Below are positions 6,163 to 33,308 of a stretch of DNA of 64,000 nt, one piece after another (the first letter of the stretch is position 1; every line of letters starts with the position of its first letter). Origin of the DNA: a virus. Lineage: Duplodnaviria > Caudoviricetes. The notes under the pieces were generated by a model that searched no databases, was not told the origin of the DNA, and was given only the letters and a program-made list of their open reading frames with translations. Location of the stretch: the IMG/VR virus record IMGVR_UViG_3300032373_000001; one strand, written 5' to 3'. The position numbers and the translations under genes were made by a program.

Positions 6163-7410
6163 TTAGGGGCTCCCGAACAGGTCTAAGGCATCAAGGTCCG
6201 TAGACCTCTCAGAAGGGCCTGCCTTATTACCGTGAAGACGGGCCATCGCCAGGGGGAGATAGTCAGGGTTGAGGTCAACCCCGACATAATCGCAACCCTC
6301 AGAAAGCGCCACCATCCCCGTCGTCGCAGACCCGCTAAACGGATCCAATACCACCGGGCGGGACACCGGGGCATCGCACTTACAGGGAGGAGCCCAACCT
6401 CCGGGACAGCGCTTCTGGCCCAAGGCATTTCCCCCCGAACCGGACCCCTCCCGGACCCGCGCTCCCCCGTCCCCCCGACCCGGATCGCCCCCCACCTTCG
6501 CAGCGGTGGGGCGGAGTGCGCGGGACTGCAAAGCCCTCCCCCAAGGCTTCCCGCAAGAAGAACAGACACCCTTGGAGGAAGCACCGAGCAGGATCAAGGG
6601 GCGGACCAGCTCTGCGGGCCAGGTGGCGAAATGCGCCCCCCTGTAAGGCTTCGGGTTCACTTGAAACCCGAGCGGGTGCCCGTCGTCCGATAGAAGGACG
6701 GGCGAGTCCGCGTTCAAGACCTCCAGGGAATACTCCCAAGAGTCAGAGTTCCTCCAATTCCGCTTCCTGCCGTAACGCTGGCGGACCTCGAAGGGGTCAT
6801 AGAAGTAACGCCCCCCCGAGTCAGGGTGAGCCAGGAGGAAGACGTACTCGGTGGCCGTCGTGGGTCGGTCCAAGACCGACTCAGGCATTGGATTCCGCTT
6901 CACCCACGGAGCGGCAGACCTCAGATACCAACCGTCCTGCTGTAAGGCGAAAGCCACCCTCCAAGGGGCACCGACCAGGTCCTTCGGCTTCAACCCTTCA
7001 GGGGTCGGGGGTCGGGCCGAGTTCCGCTGACCGTTAGACCCCCTGTTGGACTGCTGCTTGAACCCCACGCGAGTACCGTGCCCCTGCCGGCCCCCCGAAG
7101 CGTAGGAATCTCCCAAGTTCAGCCAGAGAACCCCGTCCGAGCGGAGAACGCGACGAACCTCTCGGAACACCCCCACTAAAGCCTGAACGTAACCCTCCAA
7201 AGAGTCTTCCAGACCAATCTGGTCTTCGGTCGCACCGTAATCCCGCAACCCCCAATAGGGAGGGCTCGTGCTTACGAGATGCACGCTGTTCTCGGGCAAT
7301 CCGCGGAGGGTGGCACGAGCGTCTTCCCCGTAGTAGAGTTCCGCCTTCCCGCCTTGGGGGGAATAGAATACGTCAGGACTCCTCAATGGACCGCCCCGCA
7401 GGTAGGACAC
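6163..7410 (-). CDS. DNA N4-cytosine/N6-adenine methyltransferase (beta class)
   Basis: TSPPYW precedes VLDPFSGSATTG; CSSC...CKC insertion; C-terminal ALDLFG. Confidence 0.9.
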   Translation of the reverse strand: MSYLRGGPLRSPDVFYSPQGGKAELYYGEDARATLRGLPENSVHLVSTSPPYWGLRDYGATEDQIGLEDSLEGYVQALVGVFREVRRVLRSDGVLWLNLGDSYASGGRQGHGTRVGFKQQSNRGSNGQRNSARPPTPEGLKPKDLVGAPWRVAFALQQDGWYLRSAAPWVKRNPMPESVLDRPTTATEYVFLLAHPDSGGRYFYDPFEVRQRYGRKRNWRNSDSWEYSLEVLNADSPVLLSDDGHPLGFQVNPKPYRGAHFATWPAELVRPLILLGASSKGVCSSCGKPWGRALQSRALRPTAAKVGGDPGRGDGGARVREGSGSGGNALGQKRCPGGWAPPCKCDAPVSRPVVLDPFSGSATTGMVALSEGCDYVGVDLNPDYLPLAMARLHGNKAGPSERSTDLDALDLFGSP

Positions 7411-8705
7411 TCACCGCGCTCCCCCAGCAGGGTGATGACTTCGGCCTTGACTTGAGCCAGCAGAAGGTCCAGGTGCTCCCTCTTGCTACCCAACTCCCGC
7501 TGACGTTCCAAGAGGGAGGAGCGGCGGTCGAGGGAAGCAGAGAGCTTCAAGATCCCCTTCTGGATGCGCTGCCCGCGGTCCCCCGAAGGCAGGGACACCG
7601 ACTTGACCGAGGGCAACGCGCCCTGCTTCCGCAACGCCTCTTGCCTCCGACCGCTCAAGAGGCTCATCTGGCTCAGGAGCCGTACCAACGCGGGCAGCTT
7701 CGAAGGCTCCGCTACAGGAGGAGGGCAACCGGCCAAAAGCTGTTGCTTTTGGGCAGAGGTCTCATAGCGGGAACCTACTGCTCGGAGAGTCTTCCGCGAA
7801 CGGGCCAACTTGACGACAGTCCCTGACTCAGGGACTGTCGTCCGGAAGCCCCGGAACCGAGCAGAGTCCTCCGATGCTCGAACCCAGCGGCGCTGGATCT
7901 GGTCGAGGCGGTGGATATCAGTCACGCGGGCCGGGGAGAGATGAGCATGCGACGGAACACGCCCCTCAAACGCGCCCCAGTACTGGGCTTGGACTCGGGC
8001 CTCCCCCAAGCGCGCTTGGAGCGCGCGGAGCTTCTGCAGCTCCTGCTGCCTGGAGGCAAGGAAACTCCGGCAGCCCCTTAAAGAGTCGGACGCTTTTTGG
8101 AGATCCCCCAGACCCTCGAAGTACTCCAGGTCTTTGCTGAGAGTCCGCAGGTCTTTGCTGCGGACTCTCAGTTCTCCGTCCGTGGAGCGACGGTCCCTCT
8201 CGGTTAGGCGAAGGGCCTTGTTCAGCCTCCCCACCCGCTCTACGTCGCTAAGAGCCTCCGCTACGATCGCCCCCGACTTGTTCACCAGAAAGTAGTCACC
8301 CTCCTTCTGGCGGGCGATCTGGGGCCAGAGCTGTTGATTCCCTGCGGGGATGGAATCCACCCCCAAGGCAAGGACCTCTTTGGGTGCTCCGTGGCCTACA
8401 GACTCCAGCTTCACCCCGTTGAGCCAGTACTGATTGAGGGTTCCGCCCTTCTTGTGGGGCTTGGCCCAACCCTTCTCCCACTTGATGTGGGTGCCGTCGT
8501 CCAACCAGAGGTCGACGGTCAGGTGGGCGGTCCCATTACGGACCAGCGGGCCGGCAGTAGGGTTGGTGAACACCCCCCGCACGGCCCGCATCAGCGCACT
8601 CTTCCCGATGTTATTTGGGCCAGTGATGACCGTCAAACCTGAGAGGGTGACTTCCGCATCTTTGATAGATTGGAAGTTACGCACCCGAACTCGAACCGGC
8701 ATCAA
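7383..8705 (-). CDS. SbcC/Rad50-like ATPase, N-terminal half ending at the zinc hook
   Basis: VRNFQSI, Walker A GPNNIGKS, Q-loop region, long coil, terminal ECPTCGAVH. Confidence 0.85.
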   Translation of the reverse strand: MMPVRVRVRNFQSIKDAEVTLSGLTVITGPNNIGKSALMRAVRGVFTNPTAGPLVRNGTAHLTVDLWLDDGTHIKWEKGWAKPHKKGGTLNQYWLNGVKLESVGHGAPKEVLALGVDSIPAGNQQLWPQIARQKEGDYFLVNKSGAIVAEALSDVERVGRLNKALRLTERDRRSTDGELRVRSKDLRTLSKDLEYFEGLGDLQKASDSLRGCRSFLASRQQELQKLRALQARLGEARVQAQYWGAFEGRVPSHAHLSPARVTDIHRLDQIQRRWVRASEDSARFRGFRTTVPESGTVVKLARSRKTLRAVGSRYETSAQKQQLLAGCPPPVAEPSKLPALVRLLSQMSLLSGRRQEALRKQGALPSVKSVSLPSGDRGQRIQKGILKLSASLDRRSSLLERQRELGSKREHLDLLLAQVKAEVITLLGERGECPTCGAVH

Positions 8706-8741
8706 CGGCTCCTACGACGAAGATTACAGCCCTACATTACC

Positions 8742-9956
8742 CTACTTGTCGCCATCTTCGTCGAACATGCCGTCCAAGCCCTTCAGCTCCGCGCTGATCT
8801 CGTCATCCTCCTCCAGCGCCTCGTCCGAGAACTGCGCGGCGGCTCCCTGACCCAGGAGCGGTCGGACCGTATCCCGGAGAGCATCCACCAACTCCGGGTT
8901 CTCCTTGAGGTGCTTGAGGAACTTCTCAGTCCCCTGAAGCATGAGGGACTTGCCCGGAGCACCTTCCCATTTGACCCAGGAGCCGGACTGCTTGATGATG
9001 CCATGAGCCTTGGCGATCTCCAGGAAGGAGCGGACATTGTCGATGCCCTCCCCCCAGCGGATGTAGAAGATCTCCTCACGACCCTGGCTGCGGCTCATCT
9101 TGCACTTGATGGCGGTGACCTTGATGACACCACCGACCGTGCGCTCCTCGGTCTTGTGGGTCAGCTCGTTGAACTCCTTCGCCTTCTCGTTCTGGACACG
9201 ACGGAGCTCCAGGCGAACCGAACTGTAGAACTTCCAGGCGTTGCCACCCTGCGGCTTGCTCTGCTTGCCCATCCGGGCCATGGTGGCGCGGACCTGACTG
9301 ATGCCGATGACCGCAGTGCCCGTCCGGGCAATGACACCCTTGAGCTTCGGCAGCTCCTGGGACCACACCGCCTGAAGCTCGCCGACCTTGCCCTGCTCAG
9401 CCGAGTCCAAGGCATCGCGCTCGGCCAGACGACGAGGCACCGCCGCACCGACCGAGTCGAAGACGATGACATCGACGCCTGCGGTGGCATAAGCGATGGC
9501 GAACTTCACTCCGTCCTCGAGGGTCTCCGGCTGAAGCAGCTCGAAGCGGTCGGGGTCGGTGATCGGGATACCCAAGCTGGCTGCGTAGTCTGGGACGATG
9601 TCGTTCTCCCAGTCGATGTAGACAGCGGTGCCCCCTGCGGCACAAACCGCAGCACAGCACTCCAGGGCCAGCGTGGTCTTACCAGCCGACTCGTGGCCCC
9701 AGATCTGGACGACGCGACCTCGCGGAAAGCCAGGGCAAGGGGGGACGCCGAAGGAGTTGGGCTCACCGCCGATGAGGTAGTCGATCACCTCACACCCAGA
9801 AGTGAGGTGGGGGAGGCTCTGACGAAGGGCCTCCGGATCCAGCGCCACGCGGATGTCGGTGAACTTCTTCTTCAGCTTCTTTTCGAGGTAGCCGCGCGCT
9901 GCGGCCAGGGGGCTCTGCGCCCCGCTCAGGTCTTTTGAGGACTTAACGGTAGCCAT
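8742..9956 (-). CDS. recA: RecA/UvsX recombinase
   Basis: GRVVQIWGHESAGKTTLAL, VFDSVGA, GGNAWKFYSSVRLE; ATG 9956 overlaps the RuvC stop (TGATG). Confidence 0.95.
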   Translation of the reverse strand: MATVKSSKDLSGAQSPLAAARGYLEKKLKKKFTDIRVALDPEALRQSLPHLTSGCEVIDYLIGGEPNSFGVPPCPGFPRGRVVQIWGHESAGKTTLALECCAAVCAAGGTAVYIDWENDIVPDYAASLGIPITDPDRFELLQPETLEDGVKFAIAYATAGVDVIVFDSVGAAVPRRLAERDALDSAEQGKVGELQAVWSQELPKLKGVIARTGTAVIGISQVRATMARMGKQSKPQGGNAWKFYSSVRLELRRVQNEKAKEFNELTHKTEERTVGGVIKVTAIKCKMSRSQGREEIFYIRWGEGIDNVRSFLEIAKAHGIIKQSGSWVKWEGAPGKSLMLQGTEKFLKHLKENPELVDALRDTVRPLLGQGAAAQFSDEALEEDDEISAELKGLDGMFDEDGDK

Positions 9957-10606
9957 CAGGACTCCAGGTTGGACCAAAGGAAGAAACGGTCGTCTTCCCG
10001 GTAGATTGTGCCGCGCTTGACCGTCTTGCCAGCCTTCTTGCCGCGCGTAAACACCTTCACCTCAGTGAAGAACTTCCGCTCGACGGGGGAGAGGTCGGCT
10101 TGGGAGAGGGTGCCATCGTATAGCTCCCAGAACCGAGCGCTCAGTCTGGCGCAATGGTATGCGTCGGCTTCGTTGTGGTTCCAGCGGCCAGGTCCTGCAT
10201 CGACCTTGACTGCCTCGACCATGTCTTTCTTGTCCATCTTCCACCCCTTGGGGCGGTTGACGAGCTCTCTTGCGTGCGCCTTCAACTGGAGCGGGGTCCA
10301 GAAGACGACATCACATCGGGTCTGGCGGAGGGCCTCGCACGTGAACAGGAACAGGCCGTACATTCCTTCCGACCACAAGTTCCCGAAGACTGGGAACTCA
10401 ACACCCACGGCGTCGGGCCGAAGTTCTTCGACCAGCTCCACCAAGCGCTGGCGTTGCAGCATGTAGCGGGTGATGAATTCTTGCTTGGACGAGGTCTGGA
10501 ACCGACCTCGTTGCTCGCACCGCCGAGGATCTCCTCCCGGCATGGAGGTGTCGTGCAGCGCCCAACCGTAGTTGGTCAGGGAAGGGTCTACGCCCAAGAC
10601 TCTCAT
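9956..10606 (-). CDS. RuvC-like Holliday junction resolvase
   Basis: VLGVDPSLTNYGWA, VGVEFP, NHNEADA acidic catalytic pattern. Confidence 0.85.
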   Translation of the reverse strand: MRVLGVDPSLTNYGWALHDTSMPGGDPRRCEQRGRFQTSSKQEFITRYMLQRQRLVELVEELRPDAVGVEFPVFGNLWSEGMYGLFLFTCEALRQTRCDVVFWTPLQLKAHARELVNRPKGWKMDKKDMVEAVKVDAGPGRWNHNEADAYHCARLSARFWELYDGTLSQADLSPVERKFFTEVKVFTRGKKAGKTVKRGTIYREDDRFFLWSNLES

Positions 10607-10680
10607 TCAAGCACTCCAACGGAAAAGGGGCCAGGAGAACGCACCCCCTGGCCCCGGCATCCCTCGCGGGTGAGGGATGC

Positions 10681-11469
10681 TCAGATCACGCCGTCCAGCA
10701 TTCCATCGACGTCCGCAGCGATGTTCGCCGAGTTGTTGAGGGCGGTGGCGGGGTCCTTCCCATCACGCTTGGCGATGACCTCGGCCACAGTCATCTTCGT
10801 AGCCAGCTCGGCAGGAAGGCCGTCGACGATGGCCTTCACCTGGGAGAGGATCTTCCGAACGGTGGCCTTGGCCTGCGGCTTCTCGCTCGCCATGAGCGAG
10901 GCGAGAAGGTTGGCGGGGAGCTCGTCGCTCTCCTGCTCTGCGAGGAAGGTCAGCTTCTGGTACTCAGCACCGTTCTCCGGGCAGGAGAACAGCACGTCGT
11001 GCCGGCTGAGCGGGTTGCGCTTGTGGATCTTGGCGACCTGCTTGTACTTCTCGCTGTCGCCGTGGATCCACGGGAGGACCTTCCAGCCCTTGCCCTTGGA
11101 GAACTTGTTCATGTCCAGGTCGCCCTCGTCGTTGGTCGGCCAGACGACAACGACGGTTGCAATGGCAGTCTTGGGCTTGCCGAACGTGTTGAACGCCGGA
11201 CCATCGTGGAGAACGTAACCGGCCCCCTTGACGTAGTGGCGCTGGCAGCCGGTGAACCGGGGGACCGCCTTGGGGTTGAAGGTGCCGTCGGGCTGAATCA
11301 GGCCCTCTGTGGTCCAGGTAGGGTTGCCGTCATCGTCGGGCTCTCCGGGGATGCTGAACCAGGCGAAGGAGATGCGGTCCGAGCAACCGTCCTTCGCACC
11401 GTACTTCTTCTCCTTGGTTCCGACGCCCTCGTCCTCAACGCCGATTCCGAAATCCATGAAGCCGTCCAT
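10681..11469 (-). CDS. probable phage single-stranded DNA-binding protein
   Basis: AAGGAGG RBS before ATG 11469; aromatic/beta-rich core, acidic ends; lies beside RecA/RuvC. Function inferred. Confidence 0.5.
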   Translation of the reverse strand: MDGFMDFGIGVEDEGVGTKEKKYGAKDGCSDRISFAWFSIPGEPDDDGNPTWTTEGLIQPDGTFNPKAVPRFTGCQRHYVKGAGYVLHDGPAFNTFGKPKTAIATVVVVWPTNDEGDLDMNKFSKGKGWKVLPWIHGDSEKYKQVAKIHKRNPLSRHDVLFSCPENGAEYQKLTFLAEQESDELPANLLASLMASEKPQAKATVRKILSQVKAIVDGLPAELATKMTVAEVIAKRDGKDPATALNNSANIAADVDGMLDGVI

Positions 11470-11551
11470 GGCTTCCTCCTTGTGTTGTTGTGCGCCCGTG
11501 GGTGGTAGTGTTGGCGCAGAACCTATTACCCTAACCTTAGACTTGCCAAGC

Positions 11552-12523: not shown

Positions 12524-12529
12524 GTTTCC

Positions 12530-13189
12530 TCACAGGGCTGGGTACAGCACCCGGAAGACATCTCGAACTTGTATGACATCTTCATAAAGGTGCTCGTATA
12601 CACCTTCAGCATTACCTTCCAGATAGGCTTGGTAGACGCCCGAGCCCATGACGCCATCCTGCACGGGCAGTCCCAGGAGGCGGCAGATGGTGTCGAGCTT
12701 CTTGAGGCCAAACCCCTTGGGGTAGCCTCGGCTGGAGTCCGGCCACAGTTCCTGGGTGTCGAGGACACGCTTGTCCCAGGGCTTCTGGAGCGGGGAGCCC
12801 AGGAACTTTGCCAAGGCTGGCATCCCAGCCTTGAGCGCGCGGACCTGAAGGAAGGGGAGGTCAAAGCGCCTGATGTTGTGGCCGACGAACCAGGGGTTCC
12901 GGTAGTTCTGGACGTGCCTCCAGAACTCTTCCAGCACCAGCTTTTCCGAAGAGGGGGAACCATCGCCCCAACAGAGGACAGGATCCCCAGGCCCGACTGC
13001 GAAGCCGATCATCCAGGTGCGACCCAGTGCAGGCCAGAGACTGGTGCTGCGGCGCACCTTGCCCTGGTCCTCGACCGTCAGGTCGCTCTTCGAAGCAAGG
13101 TGCTGCCAGAGGGTATCTTCCTCCTCGGCAGGCAGCGTCTCGATGTCGAGATAGAGGACGGTATCGTTGCGGGAAGGCTTGGTGCTCAT
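12530..13189 (-). CDS. DEDD 3'-5' exonuclease (PolB-exo-like)
   Basis: YLDIET, GHNIRRFDLPFL, HLYEDV motifs. Confidence 0.8.
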   Translation of the reverse strand: MSTKPSRNDTVLYLDIETLPAEEEDTLWQHLASKSDLTVEDQGKVRRSTSLWPALGRTWMIGFAVGPGDPVLCWGDGSPSSEKLVLEEFWRHVQNYRNPWFVGHNIRRFDLPFLQVRALKAGMPALAKFLGSPLQKPWDKRVLDTQELWPDSSRGYPKGFGLKKLDTICRLLGLPVQDGVMGSGVYQAYLEGNAEGVYEHLYEDVIQVRDVFRVLYPAL

Positions 13190-13234
13190 GAGGGCCTCTA
13201 AGTCAGCTTAGAGGATACCCCCAAAGACTCAAAG

Positions 13235-13534: not shown

Positions 13535-13550
13535 CTCAAGGATAGGCCCT

Positions 13551-17526: not shown

Positions 17527-17545
17527 GTGTGGCTCCGTGGGCTCG

Positions 17546-17561
17546 CTACGGATATCCGTAG
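17546..17561. promoter_or_regulatory. perfect 16-bp palindrome (operator-like)
   Basis: CTACGGATATCCGTAG in the divergent intergenic region. Confidence 0.45.
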
Positions 17562-17628
17562 ATAAGCTGCTGATTGAACACCCGAAAACCCTGGCTCTGA
17601 GCGAATCGATGAATTTTCCCACGATTTC

Positions 17629-17656
17629 TGATTTCCTGATCGCTCGCGTGCCGTAA
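17629..17656 (+). promoter_or_regulatory. class-1 promoter motif
   Basis: Exact TGATTTC-N15-CCGTAA upstream of 17796. Confidence 0.75.
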
Positions 17657-17795
17657 TGATTTTGTGGCGTGACCCGTACTCGGTTCGCTGACCGGGTCAG
17701 CCACACGGAGCCCCACCCGCAACGGGAACACTCTCGCTCCGTTCTTCCCACAACGTGACACCAGCCCCCTCCTGAGGGGAAAGGTTTAAAACCAG

Positions 17796-21473: not shown

Positions 21474-22118
21474 ATGAGCCTGCTTTTCCATGGCCCCCTG
21501 GCGCGAGACGCAGCAGTGGCCGAAGGCCAGAAGCTGGGTCGGCCGCAAGACCCGCTTGGCGACAAAGGACTCAAGATCGCTGACAGTCGGGCCATCGCCA
21601 AGATGGCCCTCCTGCCGGGAATCGGAGACCACCCCCCTTCCTTGGTGGTGGGTCCGCTGGACTCGGCAACGCCCGAAGCGGCCGATGCCCTCCTCAAGAC
21701 GATCGAGGAAATCTCCAACAAGCCCCTCCAGCTCATCTTTTGGGCCAATGACATCCGAGGGGTCATCAAGACGATCCGGTCTCGATGCTTCACCCGATGG
21801 TGCCCCGCGCCCCTCAGTGGGCGCGGCTACCAAGACCCCCTGGCCCACCTAAAGGGACACGCCAACTCTTTGATGAGGGCTGCCCTGGAAGGCGACGTAG
21901 GTCGCCTTCTGTCCTCCTTGGAGGAGGCTGGGGCGGCTACCCCCTCGGTGGTGTTTAAGGGGGTGGAGGACCTTGCTGGGAGCTTAGATGGGGCCTCTGC
22001 CCTGCGGGCAGTGAAGCTCTGGGAGCGGATCCGTAAGTCTCGCGTCTTGCATCCCCGTGCCAACCTGGGGCCGGTCAGCTATGCGGCTGTCCTCCTGCCT
22101 TTTGAGGAGGACGCATGA
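21474..22118 (+). CDS. clamp-loader delta'-like subunit (HolB-like, shortened)
   Basis: LDSATPEAADALLKTIEE and TIRSRC (SRC motif); no Walker A. Confidence 0.8.
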   Translation: MSLLFHGPLARDAAVAEGQKLGRPQDPLGDKGLKIADSRAIAKMALLPGIGDHPPSLVVGPLDSATPEAADALLKTIEEISNKPLQLIFWANDIRGVIKTIRSRCFTRWCPAPLSGRGYQDPLAHLKGHANSLMRAALEGDVGRLLSSLEEAGAATPSVVFKGVEDLAGSLDGASALRAVKLWERIRKSRVLHPRANLGPVSYAAVLLPFEEDA

Positions 22119-23146
22119 TCAGCTGGCGCAACCCGCCTCCGGTGTTCGTGGTCGGAGGGAACCTCCACTTCTTGATCGCCAGGTTTCGAGAGCAGTCCAG
22201 CATCGCAGCGAAGGCTGCGGGCTTCCAGATTCAGCGGGCGTCTTCCCAGGAGGAGGTGTTCGACGCTCTGGACTTCGCAGCCAGTTTTGGGGAAAAGACC
22301 TTGGTCTACCTGCCCCTGAAGGAGATAGACGTCGAGCTGCTCCAGCACGTCCAAGAAGAGGCCGGAGGTAGCTTCTGCCTGATCTGCCACACGGATCAGC
22401 CCCTCACTTCTTCCAAGATCAAGAAGGGCCAGAAAGCGGTCTTGGAGGAGCTGCATGCGAGCCTCCAGGTCTCCTTCGTGAACCCCACGTCCAAGAAGGA
22501 CCTCGAAGCCTTCGCTACGCGGTTCCTGAAGGTAGAGGTCGAACAGCTCATGGGCTGGACCCCCGAGAAGAAGAGGGCGGAGGGCGAAGTCATCCCTAAG
22601 CGACTCCTCGCTGCTGCCGTCAAGGCCGTGGGGACCGACGTAGGGCGGCTGAGCTTCGAGGCCCGCAAGTTCTGTGCCCTGGCCCGCAGTCAGGGGGCTT
22701 CGAAGATCGTCCCTGCTCACATCACTGCGGTTGCAAGAGGCTCCGGGGAGATCAACCTGGACCCCTTGCGCACAGCCCTCCGCACCAAGGATGTCAAGAA
22801 GTGCGCTGCTGCGCTCTACAAGATCCGCATCCAGGCCGGCAAGCAACCTCCCACGCTCCTCCTACTGCGAGGCAAGGGCTCTCCTCCAGACCTCAGCATG
22901 AGGTGGCTGCGTGCTGCTGCTTTGGGCAAGAACACTGCCCCGACGGAGCTGGCCTCAAGGTTAGGGATTCCTCGGTGGATCCTGGATCGAGACATCTTGC
23001 CCGCGTTGAGGAAGTGGTCGGCCGAAGACCTGAAAAAATTAATTCGGAACCTTAGCCGGGCCGATTCCGGGGTAGGGCGAGGAGACCCATCCCCATGGGT
23101 GATGCTCGAAGCAGCATTGCTGATCGGCTGCTCCGGTAGCGCCTAA
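22115..23146 (+). CDS. clamp-loader delta-like subunit (HolA-like)
   Basis: PPVFVVGGNLHFL start, VGTDVGRLSFEARKF, C-terminal helical collar; ATGA-coupled to delta'. Confidence 0.65.
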   Translation: MISWRNPPPVFVVGGNLHFLIARFREQSSIAAKAAGFQIQRASSQEEVFDALDFAASFGEKTLVYLPLKEIDVELLQHVQEEAGGSFCLICHTDQPLTSSKIKKGQKAVLEELHASLQVSFVNPTSKKDLEAFATRFLKVEVEQLMGWTPEKKRAEGEVIPKRLLAAAVKAVGTDVGRLSFEARKFCALARSQGASKIVPAHITAVARGSGEINLDPLRTALRTKDVKKCAAALYKIRIQAGKQPPTLLLLRGKGSPPDLSMRWLRAAALGKNTAPTELASRLGIPRWILDRDILPALRKWSAEDLKKLIRNLSRADSGVGRGDPSPWVMLEAALLIGCSGSA

Positions 23147-25551: not shown

Positions 25552-25687
25552 AATTCTACCTTCCCCGCTTCGGGGGTATGGTTCAGTTGAGGACCGTACC
25601 GCCCTCTGAATAGGAGAGCGAGGCCCGCTGAAGCTCATTCAGCTGCACCTTCCACCAGGAAGCGACCCCCGGCCCTCAAGTCGCGAG

Positions 25688-27361: not shown

Positions 27362-27376
27362 CGGTAGAGCAGGCTC

Positions 27377-27730: not shown

Positions 27731-28215
27731 TGAAAAAGCTCTCTTCGCTCACCCGCCTCAAGCTCCTGAAGATGGCCCAGGCCATGCCCAAGGGCGACGA
27801 GACCCGTCGCGCCATCCTCAGCGCACTCAAGAAGGTCGTCCCCCAGCGCGACAAGACTGCGTCTGGGAAGCTGAGGGGCAAGATCACCTTGATCATCAAC
27901 GGTCGGTACTCGAATATTGCCCGCGTCCGCAACTTCGACATGAAAGACTGGCCCAAGTTCGTCGAGATGATGAACGACGCCTATATGTGGTTCGACTCCA
28001 ACGACATCGACTCGATCGACCGGGAGGTTCAGGAACTGAAGGATCAGATCAAGGAGCTCGAGAAGCAAAAGGCAGGCGGCAAGAAGTACGTGGACTTCTT
28101 CAAGAAGTGGCGCCTCGACCCCACAGACTTCCTGGGCGGTATCGACATTCAGGGTGAGGACTCCGAAGGCACCCTCTGGGAAGAAGAGATGGGCGACTGG
28201 TACAAGCAGGCCTGA
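27730..28215 (+). CDS. hypothetical protein
   Basis: 161 aa, AGGAGG RBS; basic N-terminus, acidic C-terminus. Confidence 0.75.
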   Translation: MKKLSSLTRLKLLKMAQAMPKGDETRRAILSALKKVVPQRDKTASGKLRGKITLIINGRYSNIARVRNFDMKDWPKFVEMMNDAYMWFDSNDIDSIDREVQELKDQIKELEKQKAGGKKYVDFFKKWRLDPTDFLGGIDIQGEDSEGTLWEEEMGDWYKQA

Positions 28216-28218
28216 GCC

Positions 28219-29382
28219 CTATTCGACTCCGAAGTCGTCCATGAAAGAAGCATCCTTGGCCTGTTCGCTGAGGTGCTTCTTTTTGCGGTATGCGTGCTGC
28301 TCTTGGGGCGAGCGATGCTTGGCCCGCCACTTCTGGTACTTGGCGAACTCCTCCTCCTGAGTGCCCGCTCCCGCCAGGTCTTCTCGGAGATACATGACGA
28401 GCGAGATGCGCTCGTAGTTCTCTTCGCCTTCCACTGCGGGCTCGATCGGGGTGTTGCCGTGGAAGTGGTGCGCGACATCCATCCCGACGAAGTCCCCCTG
28501 CCGGCAGTCGAAGGCCACCCGGAACTGGGGGAAGACTGTGTAGCCGCCCTTGTAGGTGTGCTCCCCAGCTTCCAGGACACTGAAGTTTTCCAGCCCCGCC
28601 TTGAAGTCCCCCGCGTCCTGGTGACAGGCGGTCTGGAAGTTCTTGTTGACGGTGATGGTCGAGTACACGGTGCCCGGAACAACCCACTCCCGCTTGTCGA
28701 GCTCGTGCTGCTCCACGAATTCCCGCTGGGTCTGGTAGCGGTCGGGGTGTAGCTCTTCGAAGAGCTCGGTGCACCGTCGGAGGAACGGCCACGCCTGCTT
28801 GAACTTGTCCCAGTTGTCGCGGGTGTATGCGGTCTTGCGGACGTAGGGGTTCCGGGCGGTCGGGGGGAAGAAGCCTGCAATTCCGCCCATGGTCATGTTG
28901 GCTTCGACTGTGTCGGAGATGAGCCCATCCTTGGTGACGTACTTGGCGCGAGTGCCGTCGCCCACAGGGATGACACGTGCAACGTCTCGACCGAAGCGGG
29001 TGGGGTCCACCTTGCCTCCGGCCACCCCCCGGTTCTTGGAAGGGCGGGCAGCCCCCTTCAGCCCGATATAGGCCCCCTCACACTCTTCCGGAGTGAAGAC
29101 CCCCTTGCGGAAGACCAGAAACAACCGCTCGGCCAACCCCTCTTCCTCGGTCTTCTCGTCGCCGAACATGTCGAACACGCTCTCTTGGTGCGGCGCGTAG
29201 ACGTTGGTGTCGCCGTTGACCAGGACCTCGAAGGAGTCCACGTCGATGAACTCTGCCTTGAGCTTGGCGGTCTCCTCGTCTGTGAGGAAGCCCTCTCCCG
29301 TCAGTTCTACGCAGAGGACCCCGTCCTCTCGGGTCCACTCGTACCAGACCAGTCCGTTGCTCTCTTTCCGCTGTTTGTCCAC
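28219..29382 (-). CDS. TET/JBP-family 2OG-Fe(II) DNA dioxygenase
   Basis: YSTITVNKNFQTACHQDAGD (HxD), FHGNTP (distal His), ERISLVMYLRE (2OG Arg); AGGAGG RBS before GTG 29382. Confidence 0.9.
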   Translation of the reverse strand: MDKQRKESNGLVWYEWTREDGVLCVELTGEGFLTDEETAKLKAEFIDVDSFEVLVNGDTNVYAPHQESVFDMFGDEKTEEEGLAERLFLVFRKGVFTPEECEGAYIGLKGAARPSKNRGVAGGKVDPTRFGRDVARVIPVGDGTRAKYVTKDGLISDTVEANMTMGGIAGFFPPTARNPYVRKTAYTRDNWDKFKQAWPFLRRCTELFEELHPDRYQTQREFVEQHELDKREWVVPGTVYSTITVNKNFQTACHQDAGDFKAGLENFSVLEAGEHTYKGGYTVFPQFRVAFDCRQGDFVGMDVAHHFHGNTPIEPAVEGEENYERISLVMYLREDLAGAGTQEEEFAKYQKWRAKHRSPQEQHAYRKKKHLSEQAKDASFMDDFGVE

Positions 29383-29415
29383 CCAGCACCTCCTGTTCAC
29401 TCGACTAAAAACGAA

Positions 29416-29449
29416 GCCGACCCCTCTACTTACCGTGAGAGGGGTCGGC
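29416..29449 (-). terminator. terminator-like hairpin between amidoligase and TET/JBP
   Basis: 12-bp stem GCCGACCCCTCT/AGAGGGGTCGGC, followed on the minus strand by TTCGTTTTT. Confidence 0.65.
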
Positions 29450-29473
29450 AGGCCACAACCTTAATGTTCGAGG

Positions 29474-30496
29474 TTACCCGCCGAACATGTCGAAGGCGTC
29501 GTCGGGTCGGGGGGCGATTTCCACGGGCTTGCCTTGGATGCGTCGGAGGTGCGGGAAGATGTCCTTGGAGGAGACCCCAGCGATGTCCTCGATGTCGATC
29601 AGCTCTCGCAGCTGGTTGTGGCGCGCTGCCACAACCTTGCGCGGGTTCTTGTCGAAGTTGGTCCACTGGTAGAGCTGCTCGGTCTCGAACTCGTAAGGTT
29701 CGAACTCCGGGAATTTGAACGGGCCTTCCTCTCGGAGGAACAACTCCGGGGACTTCTGCTCAGCGCTCAAGGCATGCCTCAAGAAGGCGCGGCACCAGCG
29801 GATGGCGGAGAGCATCTCGTCCATGTTCAGGGTGCCAGGGAAATGGCGGAACTCGATGGTCTCGGTCTCTTCCCACATCTGGCGGAGGTTGATGCCGGCA
29901 CGTGGGCTGAAGTACCACATGCGACCCTTCTCGGTCGCCGGTGCGTGCTCCTCGTAGAAGCCTTGGGTGGTCGTGGCTGCGAGCATCGCCGCAACTCGTT
30001 TCTTGGGCATCTTGTACTGGTGGGACTTGTGCCGCCTCTTTTCCCGCTTCCGTTCCCACTCATACACCTCGGGAGGCAGGCTGGGGTCCGTCTTGGGGAT
30101 GCGTTCCACGATGCTGAAGGCGTCTTGCTGGTGCTGGTCGATGTACCGCAGCAACCTCTTGCAGCCCTCCAGGTCGTCCTTCAGCCCCGGAACCCGCACG
30201 TGGATGTGAAGGTTGGAGCGGTAGTTGACGATGGGTGCAGGACCCCCCTTCGGGAGGGCAGCGTTGATTCGAGCGATGTGCTCGACCTGCTGTTCCGGGG
30301 TGGAGGTCGGCCTCGTGTTGATCTCACCCCCGTACCGATACAGCTTGCCGACAGGGTCGTTGGCGATGCCCGTTGAAGAAACGCAGGTGTTGTCCTTGTC
30401 GTTCCACTGAGCGCCGTCGGGAAGCTCAGCGAAGCGGAAGCAGTTGCCGTACTCCAGCTCTGCACCGTAGGTGAAGCTGTCTACATCGTATTTCAT
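29474..30496 (-). CDS. putative amidoligase (COOH-NH2 ligase, Amidoligase_2-like)
   Basis: Real start ATG 30496 (ATGA overlap); YGAELEY, GGEINTRP, SNLHIHV, RAGINL, ETIEFRHF. Confidence 0.8.
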   Translation of the reverse strand: MKYDVDSFTYGAELEYGNCFRFAELPDGAQWNDKDNTCVSSTGIANDPVGKLYRYGGEINTRPTSTPEQQVEHIARINAALPKGGPAPIVNYRSNLHIHVRVPGLKDDLEGCKRLLRYIDQHQQDAFSIVERIPKTDPSLPPEVYEWERKREKRRHKSHQYKMPKKRVAAMLAATTTQGFYEEHAPATEKGRMWYFSPRAGINLRQMWEETETIEFRHFPGTLNMDEMLSAIRWCRAFLRHALSAEQKSPELFLREEGPFKFPEFEPYEFETEQLYQWTNFDKNPRKVVAARHNQLRELIDIEDIAGVSSKDIFPHLRRIQGKPVEIAPRPDDAFDMFGG

Positions 30497-31203
30497 GGGG
30501 TCGGGGAAGCCTTGGGCTGGAGGTCCTGTTGGGACTGAGGAGAGCCGACGCTCAGCAGGCTGAGGACCCTGGCTCCGGGGGTGAGCTGCGTCTTGTAGTG
30601 CATCTTGAGCTGCATGGGGTCGTTCTCGACTCCTGACCTCAACGCGATGTCCCGCGTTGAAGTGATCAGTTGACCGTTGTTTACCTTGGTGAGGTAAAGG
30701 GGGCGCTTGCCGTTGCGGTAGGCGATCATCGTCCGGTTGGCGTGAAGCTCTACCGCCGCGATGCTGGAGTCCAGCCAATCCTGGAACGGGTTGCCTCGCT
30801 TCCGAAGGAGGAGTTCTGTGTCGTTCTTGGTCTCGCAGGCGACCCCGTAGAGACCCTCCCAGTTCTCGGGGAGCTCCTGGGAGATGACCCCGTTGTGGAC
30901 CAGCGCGGTGTCCTCAGTAGAGAGCGGCTGGTTGTACTCCAGGTCGCTGGTCGAGTACCTGCAGTGGCCGAGGAGGTACAGGTTCCCGTCTTCGTTGAGG
31001 TACTGCGAGGGGTCCTGGAGGTGACGCTCAACGAAGACCTCAGCGGGAACAGGTTCCTTGATCGTGTGCAGGTTCCCCCCTTGGAGCCATGTCATGCCCG
31101 TGGCATGCTTGCCACGGATTTGGCTCTGAAGGAACACTTCTACCAGCAGGTCAAGCTCTGCCGGCTTGGGGGCCGCGAAGTATGCCCCGATTACTCCACA
31201 CAT
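30493..31203 (-). CDS. class II (Ntn) glutamine amidotransferase
   Basis: MCGVIG (N-terminal Cys), GHCRYSTS, HNGVI, NDTE. Confidence 0.9.
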   Translation of the reverse strand: MCGVIGAYFAAPKPAELDLLVEVFLQSQIRGKHATGMTWLQGGNLHTIKEPVPAEVFVERHLQDPSQYLNEDGNLYLLGHCRYSTSDLEYNQPLSTEDTALVHNGVISQELPENWEGLYGVACETKNDTELLLRKRGNPFQDWLDSSIAAVELHANRTMIAYRNGKRPLYLTKVNNGQLITSTRDIALRSGVENDPMQLKMHYKTQLTPGARVLSLLSVGSPQSQQDLQPKASPTP

Positions 31204-32681
31204 CACTCACCCCCAAAGAGGTCGAACACATCATCGCGGGTGTCGGCCTTGATCGTATCGCCTTTGAACATCCACCCCATCCGGGCAAACTTCCCTGAGT
31301 CCAGGAAGGTGTAGCCTGCGGGATTGATGCCGGTGCGGTGCGTCAGCCGGTAGTCCAGCTGCTCAGTGCGGGACTGCCAGAGCACGTCCCAGTCGATCCC
31401 ATGCCAGCCGTCGCCCTCGCACCGTTGAATCTCCCCCGCCTGCCGGTCCAGATAGTATCCGAGGTAGCGACTGTGCTTCGGTCGCCAGATCTTCTTGAAC
31501 GAGCAGAGGCACGTCTCCATGCTGAAGAAGTCGGCGTCCTTCTTCAGGCGGGGGAAGCGGGCGTGCACCTCTGCCAAGATGGAGGCCCCCTCCTCTTCCA
31601 GCCGCTGGTACTCTCCCGCAGTCAGCTTAGTGTCGACCTCGGACTCCCGCCCCAGTGCCCAGAGCAGTCCGTTCCGGTGAGAGCGGCTGCCGCTGTAGTC
31701 CTTCAACATGAGGGAGGTGGCTTCCACCGGAACACCTGCCGTGTGCTTCAGGTGCTGGAGGAAGAACCACGTAGAATAGCGACCAAACTTGTAGAGCCCG
31801 CTGAGCTGCCCCCACAGGTTCTCGAAGGTTTCTTCCTCGGTCTCCCCGTAGAACTGAGCGAAGCGGTCGTGCTGGAGCCCGTTGCCCACCCACTCAGCAT
31901 AGCTGGCGTACATGGCCGGCAGGTGACCCTTGTTCCATTTGGTGTCGGTCTGGTAGCGGAGCCTGGAGTAGTTGGCATTGTTCCAGAGCGTCAGCCGGTC
32001 GTGCGTTGCCAGCTCGAAGTCGGGGAACTCGTTGATGATGATCCAGCTCGTCGGGAGGTAGTAGGTGTTCCCGTACAGCCAGCTCAGCCACAGTCTCTGT
32101 TCCGAGTTGTGCTCGTACCGCTCGTGGAGGTAGTTGGTCATCCACAGGGCCGGGTCACAGTCCCGGAATTGAAGGGACCATGCATACCACCGGATGAAGG
32201 CTTCCCTCCGGTTCTCCGTAAGCCTGTAGTCCCCTGGGGGAGGGGCATGGGTAGGCAGGCCGCATCGGAACAGGCGCATGGCGGAGCGGATCTGGTCGAC
32301 CACTCGCTTGTGGTCCTTGGTACCCTTGGAGTAGTTGGGGTCCGGAATCCGCGTCTCACCGATGAGGTCGCTGACCCGAACAGACTTCCCGAAGACCTCG
32401 TCGCCGAACTGCTCTCGCAGCCGACGCTCGTTGCCGTTGTCCATGTAGAAGATGACGTCGGCCCAGTCGATGAGGTCTTGGCGGACGGCGGTGGACCGGA
32501 TGCCCAGACCATCCAGGCCCCGGCTCCTCAAGGCTGTGCGCATCTTCTTCGTGGTCCGGACCCCGTCCTTGCCTTTGAGGGCAGCGGAGCGGATGTCCCA
32601 GTGAGGCTCCATTGCTTGGAGCATGATGTGCCCGGCCGGGGAACGGTTGATGTTCCCGTGGCACAAAAACAAGACGCGCAC
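31203..32681 (-). CDS. LMW-PTP-like phosphatase fused to an amino-acid:DNA transferase (aGPT-Pplase-like)
   Basis: N-terminal about 140 aa: LFLCHGNINRS...IPDPNY. C-terminal part: RDCDPAL, KFGRYSTWFF, METCLCSFKK, YLGYY, matching my recollection of clade-2 aGPT-Pplase. Confidence 0.72.
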   Translation of the reverse strand: MRVLFLCHGNINRSPAGHIMLQAMEPHWDIRSAALKGKDGVRTTKKMRTALRSRGLDGLGIRSTAVRQDLIDWADVIFYMDNGNERRLREQFGDEVFGKSVRVSDLIGETRIPDPNYSKGTKDHKRVVDQIRSAMRLFRCGLPTHAPPPGDYRLTENRREAFIRWYAWSLQFRDCDPALWMTNYLHERYEHNSEQRLWLSWLYGNTYYLPTSWIIINEFPDFELATHDRLTLWNNANYSRLRYQTDTKWNKGHLPAMYASYAEWVGNGLQHDRFAQFYGETEEETFENLWGQLSGLYKFGRYSTWFFLQHLKHTAGVPVEATSLMLKDYSGSRSHRNGLLWALGRESEVDTKLTAGEYQRLEEEGASILAEVHARFPRLKKDADFFSMETCLCSFKKIWRPKHSRYLGYYLDRQAGEIQRCEGDGWHGIDWDVLWQSRTEQLDYRLTHRTGINPAGYTFLDSGKFARMGWMFKGDTIKADTRDDVFDLFGGE

Positions 32682-32690
32682 GGGCGCCTC

Positions 32691-33308
32691 CTACTCGAAG
32701 GAGTGGATGAAGTCCAGGATCTGCTGTGCCACCTCGGATGGGGTGACGCCCTCCACCGTGATGTTGAGCAGTCGGTTCTCTTCGTCCGTCGGATCGCCCC
32801 CGTCGCCGAACATGTCGAAGAGGGAGTTGTCCTGGGGCAGGAAGCGGTCAGCGAAGCGTCGGGCCTTGCTGACGCGCCCCTTGAGCCAAGTGGGGTTTTG
32901 GTCGCTGCCCCGCTCCTTGCGGCGCGCATCCATCACTTCGTCGCTGGCCCCCAGGTGAGCGCAGAGCACCTTGACGCCTCGGTCTTCCAGGAACTTCTTC
33001 GCATTGGCGTGACTGAAGCGGTCGCCGTCGAACACCGTGTACTTGTAGGTGGCGTCGGGGAGGATCTCCTCCTCCCAGTGCTCCACGCAGGGGACCCAGC
33101 CATCGTTGGGGACCGTGTCTGCGCCGTCGAAGGTTCCGGTCCCGTAGTGGCCTGCGAACACGTAGGGGCCTCCATTCTGAAGGCACCACTTGATCTTCTT
33201 GGTCTCGTCGTGGGTGAAGTTGGTGTAGTCCTTCCCGAGGATGATACGGGCGGTGGTTGTTTTGCCGACGCCTGGAGGGCCGACGAGGAACAGCGCGATG
33301 TGGGCCAT
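32691..33308 (-). CDS. P-loop kinase of the 5hmU-DNA kinase type
   Basis: GPPGVGKTT, GHYGTGTFDGADT, FDGDRF, RRKERGSDQNPTWLKGRVSK; adjacent to the transferase. Confidence 0.75.
   Translation of the reverse strand: MAHIALFLVGPPGVGKTTTARIILGKDYTNFTHDETKKIKWCLQNGGPYVFAGHYGTGTFDGADTVPNDGWVPCVEHWEEEILPDATYKYTVFDGDRFSHANAKKFLEDRGVKVLCAHLGASDEVMDARRKERGSDQNPTWLKGRVSKARRFADRFLPQDNSLFDMFGDGGDPTDEENRLLNITVEGVTPSEVAQQILDFIHSFE

What the first reader, a model, noticed from the sequence alone, without database searches (positions are those of the whole stretch)
6172..32822. Shared [FL]-D-[ML]-F-G peptide in five DNA-modifying enzymes: candidate clamp-docking motif
Seen: VFDMFG in a TET/JBP loop (29161-29178), AFDMFG at the amidoligase C-terminus (29480-29497), VFDLFG at the transferase C-terminus (31212-31229), LFDMFG near the kinase C-terminus (32805-32822) and ALDLFG at the MTase C-terminus (6172-6189). 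These are five unrelated folds; each motif sits in a tail or insert after acidic/polar residues. GATase and NT5C, which need not touch DNA, lack it. Known: short hydrophobic motifs (beta-clamp QL[SD]LF, T4 gp45-binding LDFL[FL]) tether enzymes to sliding clamps. Inference: the modification pathway docks on one hub, most plausibly the phage clamp (2799..3971), coupling modification to the fork. The motif also ties the separately terminated TET/JBP gene to the pathway. I know of no description of this for hypermodification enzymes.
Basis: partly seen in the sequence, partly recalled or inferred. Interest (0 to 1): 0.88.

Follow-up and report, generated by a model that had tools for sequence, protein, structure and literature searches.

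The report
Clamp-docking tags on phage DNA-modifying enzymes
Five unrelated DNA-modifying enzymes of this large uncultured phage carry the same short peptide, which most likely hooks them onto the phage's own ring-shaped DNA sliding clamp so that chemical modification of the DNA follows replication.

Summary
All five [FL]-D-[ML]-F-G peptides are in frame on the minus strand at the stated coordinates. They are the only matches in all six frames (expected 0.05; Poisson P 4e-9).

The gene at 2799-3971 is a DnaN/beta-type clamp (model pLDDT 92; Foldseek E 5e-22 to bacterial beta clamps). A co-fold puts the transferase tail in the cleft between clamp domains II and III (ipSAE 0.62, best control 0.00).

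The motif is conserved in relatives:
- 6 of 7 methylase orthologs end in [VI]FDLF (five continue with G).
- 31 of 36 close TET relatives keep it in the same loop.
- Two other phages carry it on the kinase, transferase and TET; one of them has a beta-type clamp on the same contig and also tags a methylase, the other also tags its amidoligase.

The same gene cassette in T4-like phages, which have gp45-type clamps, carries a different tail instead. That tail, [ST/G]LExF[F], matches the tail of those phages' own family-B polymerase, which aligns with the T4 gp43 tail SLDFLFG. The tag therefore changes with clamp type.

Limits: there is no binding experiment, this phage's polymerase was not found, and the host clamp is not excluded. 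I found no publication describing this. This scan has noted the same idea on other genomes.

The parts
2799..3971 (-). Phage-encoded beta/DnaN-type sliding clamp (390 aa), the proposed docking hub
   Evidence: It matches phrog_947, DNA polymerase processivity factor, at E 2e-24. That profile also matches 13 of 14 cellular control genomes. Some homologs are named DNA pol III sliding clamp beta by JGI. The AF2 model has pLDDT 92.1 and pTM 0.88. Foldseek top hits are M. tuberculosis and E. coli DnaN at E 5e-22, TM 0.75-0.84.
6163..7410 (-). N6/N4 DNA methyltransferase; C-terminal tag ALDLFG at 6172-6189, followed by SP and the stop
   Evidence: Pfam PF01555 at E 2.5e-33. Position. Six of 7 non-redundant orthologs in beta-clamp phages end in [VI]FDLF (G follows in five, P in one), behind variable acidic linkers.
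28219..29400 (-). TET/JBP-type (5mYOX) dioxygenase. Internal tag VFDMFG at 29161-29178 (aa 75-80). A second conserved C-terminal peptide, SFMDDFGVE, lies at 28222-28248.
   Evidence: Pfam PF12851 at E 5e-20. The tag lies in a variable, acidic segment after the conserved VYAP (alignment A2). Of 36 cluster representatives at 52-74% identity, 31 keep [VILA][FL]D[ML]F at this spot and the other 5 have close variants.
29474..30496 (-). Amidoligase (340 aa); C-terminal tag AFDMFG at 29480-29497, followed by G and the stop
   Evidence: Pfam PF12224 at E 6e-5. The start ATG overlaps the GATase stop. Orthologs in T4-like phages stop about 17 residues earlier and have no tag. The L120 ortholog (57% identity) ends in VLAMFSGG.
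30493..31206 (-). Glutamine amidotransferase, untagged
   Evidence: Pfam GATase_6 and GATase_7. No motif in this protein or in about 30 orthologs.
31203..32681 (-). LMW phosphatase fused to an amino acid:DNA transferase (AADT/ADDT); C-terminal tag VFDLFG at 31212-31229, followed by GE and the stop
   Evidence: Pfam PF01451 plus PF18724. The tail was co-folded with the clamp. Of its 120 nearest homologs, 119 end in GLExF-type tails and only this protein ends in VFDLFGGE. The fused ortholog in L120 ends in IFSMFGV.
32691..33308 (-). P-loop DNA kinase (5-hmdU kinase family); tag LFDMFG at 32805-32822 inside an acidic insert of about 24 aa
   Evidence: Pfam PF18751 at E 2e-5. The insert is absent from orthologs in T4-like phages. 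It is present with the motif in L120 (LFDMFG) and L121 (MFDMFG).
33312..33854 (-). 5'-deoxyribonucleotidase-like protein, untagged
   Evidence: phrog_2643 at E 2e-24. No motif.
29406..29446 (-). Terminator-like GC-rich hairpin plus U-run between the amidoligase and the TET gene
   Evidence: RNA fold of the intergenic stretch gives -40.8 kcal/mol, z -2.9. The simple consensus scan did not list it.
22115..23146 (+). Probable clamp-loader delta-like subunit
   Evidence: It is 39% identical to the L121 protein that hits PF21694, DNA_pol3_delta_C. A DnaX-like loader (PF13177) lies just left of the window at L008 7436-8782.

Best explanation
The peptide phi-[FL]-D-[ML]-F-(G) is a short linear clamp-binding motif of the bacterial beta-clamp type. 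It sits on disordered C-terminal tails (methylase, amidoligase, transferase) or in acidic surface inserts (TET, kinase). It inserts its hydrophobic residues into the cleft between domains II and III of the phage's own DnaN-like clamp, the site that polymerases and repair enzymes use in bacteria.

Clamps left on newly made DNA would therefore concentrate the thymine-hypermodification enzymes (oxidation, then phosphorylation, then amino-acid transfer, then amide ligation) and the methylase on fresh, unmodified DNA. This couples a post-replicative pathway to the fork.

The tag is portable. The same cassette in T4-like phages carries the gp45-type tail of their polymerase instead.

Shown here: motif presence, enrichment, conservation, the clamp fold, and the switch of tail with clamp type. 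Inferred: actual binding, which clamp is bound (phage or host), and the effect on modification.
For: 1. The five hits are far beyond chance and occur only in DNA-modifying enzymes.

2. The clamp is beta-type.

3. Co-fold of the clamp dimer with transferase residues 458-492: ipSAE 0.62, 0.59 and 0.62 against a best control of 0.00. The three runs share 60-79% of contacts; partner pLDDT is 44-48. The tool reports that its mark was reached by 58 of 80 solved complexes and 2 of 110 mismatched pairs, and that these counts hold only roughly here. Peptide contacts are R482-F486 and L488-G491, which covers the motif. Clamp contacts are 155, 171, 173-176, 245-249, 350, 352-353, 355, 385 and 387. Eight of these positions are invariant or at least 90% conserved in 52 clamp homologs (T171, R173, R174, A175, P245, L247, V385, V387). 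By position they correspond to the E. coli subsite I/II residues listed in PMC11139829.

4. Conservation with variable flanks: methylase orthologs; the TET loop in 31 of 36 relatives; L120 kinase, transferase, amidoligase and TET.

5. L121, which lies on the same 57.7-kb contig as the beta-clamp locus L047, has the motif on its kinase, its TET and its methylase (LLNLF), and on a different AADT clade with only 24% identity (ILDMF). The last is an independent acquisition.

6. In about 30 T4-like contigs, TET, AADT, GNAT and TAGT enzymes end like the family-B polymerase (SLEDFFG). That polymerase aligns end to end with T4 gp43, whose tail is SLDFLFG. Two of those contigs encode gp45-type clamps (phrog_223, E 3e-72 and 1e-59).

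7. Within the beta-clamp lineage, 24 of 1299 ORFs have the motif in their last 20 residues, against 1.1 in shuffles. They fall into only four families.

8. The sequence fits the published clamp-binding motif definition, Q-phi-x-[LM]-[FL], with its noted preference for Asp at position 3 and its location in tails or loops (PMC11139829; PMC9690074).
Against: - There is no binding measurement.
- The co-fold may score from memory of solved beta-clamp/peptide complexes. It used my own alignment and a clamp dimer, which differs from the tool's calibration.
- The motif lacks the Gln at position 1 that contributes strongly to affinity in bacterial ligands.
- The replicative polymerase of this phage was not found in the window or in the flanks I could fetch, up to 10 kb on either side. 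The expected positive control is therefore missing.
- The one experimentally studied precedent, T4 alpha-glucosyltransferase with gp45, was not reproduced in a recent study. That study used C-terminally His-tagged enzymes.
- The TET model was too poor (pLDDT 44.6) to show that its motif is exposed.
Confidence: 0.75

Rival explanations
1. The tag is a clamp-binding motif, but its target is the host's DnaN clamp rather than, or as well as, the phage-encoded clamp.
For: [quoted passage not shown] Phages such as Mu are reported to use the host clamp (titles).
Against: The phage encodes its own clamp and loader. The cleft residues contacted in the model are conserved within the phage clamp family. 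The tags lack Gln and usually carry a residue pattern (V/I at position 1, G/S/A after the Phe) that recurs across this phage lineage, which suggests tuning to the lineage's own clamp. In the T4-like lineage the tail copies the phage polymerase's tail.
Confidence: 0.12
2. The tag docks on a different shared hub of the replication or recombination module, for example the gp32-like SSB, the RecA-like recombinase or the polymerase. This would resemble the way the acidic, aromatic tails of T7 gp2.5 and gp4 bind T7 polymerase.
For: The tags follow acidic linkers. Several other proteins of the module have their own conserved C-terminal peptides: the SSB-like protein (DVDDLLDDVL), the PDDEXK nuclease (GFVDLSL) and the RecA-like protein (LDAIFDE). 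More than one docking code is therefore in play.
Against: The tag matches the clamp-binding consensus rather than SSB-tail patterns. The co-fold places it in the canonical clamp cleft, with zero-scoring controls. In T4-like relatives the equivalent tail is homologous to the gp43 tail, whose partner is the clamp (PMC9690074).
Confidence: 0.08
3. The tag assembles the pathway enzymes with each other into a metabolon through a cassette-encoded adaptor, independent of replication.
For: Four of the five tagged genes are adjacent in one cassette.
Against: The methylase lies 22 kb away, inside the replication and recombination module. Its orthologs keep the tag in phages where no cassette lies within 10 kb of the clamp. 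A metallopeptidase family and phrog_1123 proteins of the same lineage carry it too. No candidate adaptor is conserved across the window, L120 and L121.
Confidence: 0.04
4. The match is a coincidence of composition or codon bias, or a DNA-level repeat, with no function at the protein level.
For: Three copies share 15 identical nucleotides. The genome is GC-rich with strong codon bias.
Against: Five are observed against 0.05 expected, with no hit in the other reading frames. Two copies are spelled differently at the DNA level. The motif is conserved at the same positions in orthologs of 50-74% identity from genomes of 50-62% GC.
Confidence: 0.01

Closest known systems
Bacterial beta-clamp-binding motifs (QL[SD]LF; Q-phi-x-[LM]-[FL]) of Pol II, Pol III alpha, Pol IV, Pol V, Hda, MutS/MutL and the delta subunit
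   Same: A five-residue hydrophobic core with [LM]-F at positions 4-5, Asp at position 3, placement in C-terminal tails or internal loops, and a beta-type clamp as partner. The predicted binding site is the domain II/III cleft.
   Different: There is no Gln at position 1 (A, V or L instead, as in the delta subunit's AMSLF). Position 2 is Phe in four of the five copies. The core is followed by G here and by G, S or A in relatives. The clients are DNA base-modifying enzymes; 'methyltransferase' does not occur in the text of the 2024 review PMC11139829. The clamp is phage-encoded and only 15-18% identical to bacterial DnaN.
C-terminal gp45-binding epitopes of T4/RB69 gp43, gp33 and gp55 (SLDFLFG / LDFL type)
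   Same: The logic is the same: a short C-terminal hydrophobic peptide shared by the polymerase and other clamp clients. The orthologous cassette in T4-like metagenomic phages carries exactly this kind of tail on TET, AADT, GNAT and TAGT enzymes.
   Different: The window's phage has a dimeric beta-type clamp, not a trimeric gp45-type clamp, and its tag has a different sequence pattern. In the window, only the TET C-terminus (SFMDDFGVE) still aligns with the gp45-type tail.
DNMT1 PIP-box binding to PCNA, which couples eukaryotic maintenance methylation to replication
   Same: A DNA-modifying enzyme is tethered to the sliding clamp so that new DNA is modified promptly (PMC9690074).
   Different: The motif class differs (Qxx[IL]xxFF), as do the clamp and the domain of life. 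In the window a whole multi-step pathway is tagged, not a single enzyme.
Reported T4 alpha-glucosyltransferase interaction with gp45
   Same: It is the only earlier proposal I found that a phage DNA-hypermodifying enzyme rides the phage clamp.
   Different: That interaction was not reproduced in vitro or in vivo in the 2025/2026 study (10.64898/2025.12.06.692756, also PMC13216743), which used C-terminally tagged enzymes. The passages I read mention no shared motif or pathway-wide tag.
Phage 5mYOX (TET/JBP) thymine-dioxygenase pathways with GATase, P-loop kinase and AADT (PMC13229309)
   Same: The enzyme set and the post-replicative chemistry are the same. That paper notes a C-terminal extension of some 5mYOXs that is needed for activity but is not explained by ParB binding.
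   Different: That paper does not discuss clamp docking. It calls the rationale for post-replicative hypermodification a mystery.

Membership tests
Beta-clamp-binding motif (CBM) | Pentapeptide with Leu or Met at position 4 and Phe or Leu at position 5 | tested here: met
   All five copies have [ML]-F. The definition is from PMC11139829.
Beta-clamp-binding motif (CBM) | Gln at position 1 | tested here: not met
   Position 1 is V, A, V, L or A. The review names the delta subunit (AMSLF) as the only natural ligand without Gln and says Gln is important but not necessary for binding.
Beta-clamp-binding motif (CBM) | Aliphatic residue at position 2 | tested here: inconclusive
   Position 2 is Phe in four copies and Leu in the methylase. 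Relatives alternate F and L at this position. Phe is hydrophobic but not aliphatic.
Beta-clamp-binding motif (CBM) | Located in a disordered tail or an exposed loop | tested here: met
   Three copies lie within 1-2 residues of the C-terminus, behind acidic or polar linkers that vary among orthologs. The kinase and TET copies lie in lineage-specific acidic inserts. The TET structure model was too poor to add support.
Beta-clamp-binding motif (CBM) | A beta-type clamp is available as partner | tested here: met
   Clamp fold confirmed. A clamp-loader gene lies nearby.
Beta-clamp-binding motif (CBM) | Binds the hydrophobic cleft between clamp domains II and III | tested here: inconclusive
   The co-fold supports this (ipSAE 0.62 against best control 0.00; 58 of 80 solved complexes and 2 of 110 mismatched pairs reached the tool's mark). 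It is a model, not a measurement, and may reflect memory of solved complexes.
Beta-clamp-binding motif (CBM) | Measured affinity that is lost on mutating the hydrophobic residues | not testable with these tools
   Needs FP, ITC or SPR with purified clamp and peptides.
T4-type gp45-binding C-terminal epitope | [ST]LDFL[FY]-like peptide at the extreme C-terminus, shared with the phage's family-B polymerase, with a gp45-type clamp present | tested here: not met
   The window has a beta-type clamp, no gp45-type clamp and no family-B polymerase. The feature is met in the T4-like relatives L001-L032.
PIP box (PCNA-interacting peptide) | Qxx[ILM]xx[FY][FY] | tested here: not met
   The sequences do not fit this pattern. 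Pattern from PMC9690074.

The most novel reading that the evidence does not exclude
Phage DNA hypermodification is organised as a tool-belt on the sliding clamp. Each enzyme that must touch DNA carries a portable docking peptide, and when a modification cassette moves between phage lineages the peptide is rewritten to match the recipient's clamp: a gp45-type tail [ST/G]LExFF or a beta-type tag phi-F-D-[LM]-F. If so, the tail could be used to predict which enzymes of an unknown pathway act on DNA and which clamp a phage uses. It would also explain how post-replicative pathways modify newly replicated DNA promptly.
Probability: 0.6. Interest if true: 0.85.

Novelty: new variant of a known kind. 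Interest (0 to 1): 0.78.

Why it matters
Post-replicative hypermodification must reach new phage DNA before host nucleases do. The literature I read calls the rationale for this route a mystery (PMC13229309).

A clamp-docking tag on each DNA-acting enzyme gives a concrete, testable mechanism for coupling modification to replication. It extends the list of clamp clients to base-modifying enzymes in bacterial viruses, a parallel to DNMT1 and PCNA.

It also offers a practical rule. The tag marks which enzymes of an uncharacterised pathway work on DNA; here the amidoligase is tagged but the GATase and the nucleotidase are not. And it shows that such tags are exchanged when cassettes move between phages with different clamps. 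For people who express these enzymes heterologously, missing clamp partners could explain weak activity.

Tried and rejected
- A near-identical DNA search of the phage collection found nothing, and no whole genome is held for the window.
- A single-sequence clamp search of IMG/VR found no relatives. The alignment-based metagenome scan worked instead.
- I looked for this phage's replicative polymerase or ligase as an in-genome positive control. None appeared among the window's larger ORFs by Pfam or PHROGs. None appeared in the gene lists up to 10 kb either side or in earlier notes on this genome. The 219-aa PolB-exonuclease-like protein (12530-13189) stands alone. Its 323-aa neighbour has no recognisable fold, and the next gene looks like a gp32-type SSB.
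- The genome search does not hold the metagenome contigs, so polymerases of relatives could not be sought that way.
- The AF2 model of the TET protein from an 11-row alignment was poor (pLDDT 44.6), so it says nothing about loop exposure.
- The DNA-repeat explanation is rejected: two copies are spelled differently, and the peptide is conserved across genomes of different GC content.
- The metabolon-adaptor idea is rejected because the tag occurs on proteins outside the cassette and in phages where no cassette lies near the clamp.
- The simple terminator scan did not list the hairpin between the amidoligase and TET. Folding that stretch shows it.
Full report
**1. The observation**

The window has 62.5% GC, and the finding's genes are all on the minus strand. 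The five hexapeptides translate exactly as reported.

Pfam assigns the carriers to five unrelated families:
- an N6_N4 DNA methylase (6163-7410);
- a Tet_JBP dioxygenase (28219-29400);
- an Amidoligase_2 protein (29474-30496);
- an LMWPc phosphatase fused to an ADDT amino acid:DNA transferase (31203-32681);
- a P-loop nucleotide kinase3 (32691-33308).

In the methylase, amidoligase and transferase the peptide lies one or two residues from the stop codon. In the kinase it follows the kinase domain (aa 163-168 of 205). In the TET protein it is at aa 75-80, ahead of the catalytic domain. The GATase and the 5'-nucleotidase-like protein in the same cluster have no copy.

Among about 20,100 residues of 95 called proteins, 0.054 matches are expected and 5 are seen. 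No shuffle out of 5000 reached 5, Poisson P is 3.6e-9, and the five are the only matches in all six frames. The pattern was chosen after the fact, but the excess is too large for that to matter. Two copies use different codons at the Leu, Phe and Gly positions, so the shared unit is the peptide and not a DNA repeat.

**2. The proposed hub is a beta-type clamp**

- The 390-aa product of 2799-3971 has no Pfam hit, but it matches phrog_947 (DNA polymerase processivity factor) at E 2e-24. That profile also matches the genomes of 13 of 14 cellular control organisms.
- It has more than 130 metagenomic homologs at 40-50% identity. JGI names some of them DNA pol III sliding clamp beta.
- A model built from 52 of these homologs has pLDDT 92.1 and pTM 0.88.
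- Its best PDB matches are the DnaN clamps of M. tuberculosis and E. coli (E 5e-22, TM 0.75-0.84, 15-18% identity).
- A DnaX-like loader lies just left of the window, and a delta-like subunit is at 22115-23146.

**3. Direct test by co-folding**

I co-folded the clamp (two copies, with its alignment) with the last 35 residues of the transferase.

- Scores were ipSAE 0.62, 0.59 and 0.62, against 0.00 for all three controls. The runs share 60-79% of contacts, and the partner's pLDDT is 44-48.
- The tool reports that its mark was reached by 58 of 80 solved complexes and 2 of 110 mismatched pairs. It warns that these counts hold only roughly here, because I used my own alignment and a clamp dimer.
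- The confident contacts on the peptide are R482-F486 and L488-G491, which is the tag itself.
- The contacts on the clamp are 155, 171, 173-176, 245-249, 350, 352-353, 355, 385 and 387.
- T171, R173, R174, A175, P245, L247, V385 and V387 are invariant or at least 90% conserved across the clamp family.
- By position these residues correspond to the E. coli cleft residues: L155, T172, G174-L177, P242, R246, V247, V360 and M362 for subsite I, and neighbours for subsite II (PMC11139829). I did not superpose the structures.
- The pass may reflect the model's memory of solved clamp/peptide complexes. It shows likeness, not binding.

**4. Conservation in the phage's own lineage**

A scan with the clamp alignment returned 78 metagenome loci, and I fetched one more relative.

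- Six of 7 non-redundant methylase orthologs (47-52% identity) end in [VI]FDLF, followed by G in five and P in one. The linkers before it vary in length and sequence.
- Over 1299 ORFs of these loci, 24 have phi-[FLEQ]-[DE]-[LM]-F in their last 20 residues, against 1.1 in shuffles (maximum 4). They belong to only four families: the methylase, a PhageMetallopep family (consensus SPVE[ED]MFG) and two forms of phrog_1123 small proteins.

The closest relative of the hypermodification cassette is L120, with 49-71% identity. It keeps the tag at each homologous place:
- kinase insert LFDMFG;
- fused transferase end IFSMFGV;
- amidoligase end VLAMFSGG;
- TET loop VFDMFS;
- the GATase is again untagged.

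L121 lies on the same 57.7-kb contig (JACCDO012236765.1) as the beta-clamp locus L047. It shares RNR (67%), a delta-like subunit, TET (66%) and kinase (74%) with the window. It has the tag at four places:
- kinase MFDMFG;
- TET loop VLDFF;
- a methylase ending in LLNLF;
- an AADT of a different clade (24% identity) ending in ILDMF.

Among 36 cluster representatives of the TET clade at 52-74% identity, 31 have [VILA][FL]D[ML]F in the same loop. The other five have close variants.

**5. The tail changes with the clamp**

About 30 IMG/VR contigs of 29-49% GC carry the same TET, GATase, amidoligase, phosphatase, AADT and kinase genes at up to 67% identity.

- There the TET and AADT proteins end in [ST/G]LE[EDS]F[FLM]. 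So do a GNAT acetyltransferase or a TET-associated glycosyltransferase where present.
- The GATase, amidoligase, phosphatase and kinase on those contigs have no such tail.
- Every family-B polymerase seen on those contigs ends in SLEDFFG or a near variant. It aligns end to end with T4 gp43, whose tail ASLDFLFG is the corresponding segment. The LDFL-type peptide is the known gp45-binding epitope (PMC9690074).
- Two of these contigs encode gp45-type clamps (phrog_223, E 3e-72 and 1e-59), and none has a phrog_947 clamp.
- Of the 120 nearest AADT homologs, 119 end in GLExF-type tails. Only the window's protein ends in VFDLFGGE.
- More distant AADT representatives end in other hydrophobic peptides, including a canonical QLTLF.
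- The window's TET still ends in SFMDDFGVE, which aligns with SLEEFFG of the T4-like orthologs. Its new tag sits in a variable acidic loop.
- The kinase and the amidoligase gained an insert and a tail that their T4-like orthologs lack.

The simplest reading is that the cassette moved between phage lineages and its docking peptides were rewritten to suit the resident clamp.

**6. Mechanism, and what is inferred**

Established knowledge:
- Beta-clamp clients bind one cleft through short motifs, Q-phi-x-[LM]-[FL], located in tails or loops (PMC11139829).
- T4 clients bind gp45 through C-terminal LDFL-type peptides.
- DNMT1 uses PCNA in the same way (PMC9690074).
- Phage 5mYOX, kinase and AADT pathways act on DNA after replication (PMC13229309).

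Inferred here:
- The tags tether the methylase and four pathway enzymes to clamps on newly replicated DNA.
- Tagged enzymes are the ones that act on DNA. This includes the amidoligase but not its glutaminase partner or the nucleotidase.
- The target is the phage clamp rather than the host's.

The missing Gln at position 1 is a real departure from the bacterial consensus.

**7. Novelty**

Seven full-text searches found no paper describing clamp-binding tags on phage hypermodification enzymes or phage methylases. The nearest precedent is the disputed T4 alpha-glucosyltransferase interaction with gp45.

This scan's own earlier notes report the same idea on other genomes: T4-like phages, another beta-clamp phage with a PLF tail, and a DpdA enzyme. 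They also report it for this same stretch read in another window. Those are unchecked AI notes and I did not use them as evidence. My loci L001-L032 reproduce the T4-like case independently.

**8. Limits**

- No experiment was done.
- The polymerase of this phage was not located.
- The host is unknown.
- The co-fold differs from the tool's calibration.
- The TET loop's exposure rests on alignment only, because the TET model failed.

Noticed in passing
window 4250-4282 (C-terminus of the PD-(D/E)XK nuclease 4247-5194, minus strand): The Cas4-like nuclease ends in GFVDFSL. About 45 orthologs in beta-clamp phages end in G-F-[VAST]-D-[LF]-[ST]-L behind a basic stretch, and one distant ortholog ends in GVFDLSFD. 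This could be a second, hexamer-type clamp motif or a tag for another partner.
   Followed up: partly
L008 5298-5909 (about 0.6 kb left of the window start): A PhageMetallopep protein next to the clamp loader ends in SSVFDLTLD. About 20 orthologs carry SPVE[ED]MFG or a close variant near the C-terminus. A clamp-tethered metalloprotease would recall eukaryotic SPRTN with its PIP box; that comparison is from my own knowledge.
   Followed up: partly
window 8745-8789 (C-terminus of the RecA/UvsX-like protein 8742-9977, minus strand): The tail contains LDGMFDEDG. Several orthologs have LDAIFDE or FEGIFDDD at the same place, and others have different acidic tails.
   Followed up: no
window 10681-11469 (minus strand): A 262-aa protein without Pfam or PHROG hits resembles gp32-type SSB clusters in the ESM Atlas. 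It ends in an acidic, hydrophobic tail DVDGMLDGVI, conserved as DVDDLLDDVL in relatives. This is a typical SSB-type client-recruiting tail.
   Followed up: partly
window 28222-28248 (TET C-terminus) and proteins P0392-P0427: Besides the loop tag, the TET clade of the beta-clamp lineage keeps a C-terminal D-[AE]-[DE]-F-M-x-[ED]-F-G. It aligns with the gp45-type SLEEFFG of T4-like orthologs. Its partner in a beta-clamp phage is unexplained.
   Followed up: partly
window 31203-32681; L120 6554-8017: The LMW phosphatase and the AADT are one fused protein in the window and in L120. They are two adjacent genes in about 25 T4-like contigs.
   Followed up: partly
L071 4396-4920 and L074 2042-2566: A 174-aa phrog_1123 protein of unknown function carries SLFDLFGA at residue 14. 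The L071 copy also ends in FLDLFGE; no C-terminal match was detected in the L074 copy. The 139-aa forms in L061 and L065 carry only the C-terminal copy.
   Followed up: no
window 16075-17751 (minus strand): A 558-aa protein with no family hit has an internal SLDLDLFA at about aa 121-128. Whether the peptide is a tag is unknown.
   Followed up: no
proteins P0241-P0390 (AADT representatives): Across distant AADT clades the C-termini end in assorted short hydrophobic peptides, such as QLTLF, DLF, ELF, EFFG and IFDILG. Lineage-specific docking tails may therefore be a general feature of this enzyme family.
   Followed up: partly
window 37532-38689 (plus strand): A 385-aa protein has a Zeta-toxin/AAA_33 kinase-like domain (PF06414, E 2.7e-11).
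   Followed up: no
window 2155-2811 and 7383-8705 (minus strand): An SbcC/Rad50-like N-terminal ATPase (7383-8705) and a separate 218-aa ATPase (phrog_15167) flank the methylase, the Mre11-like gene, the nuclease and the clamp. I did not test that.
   Followed up: no
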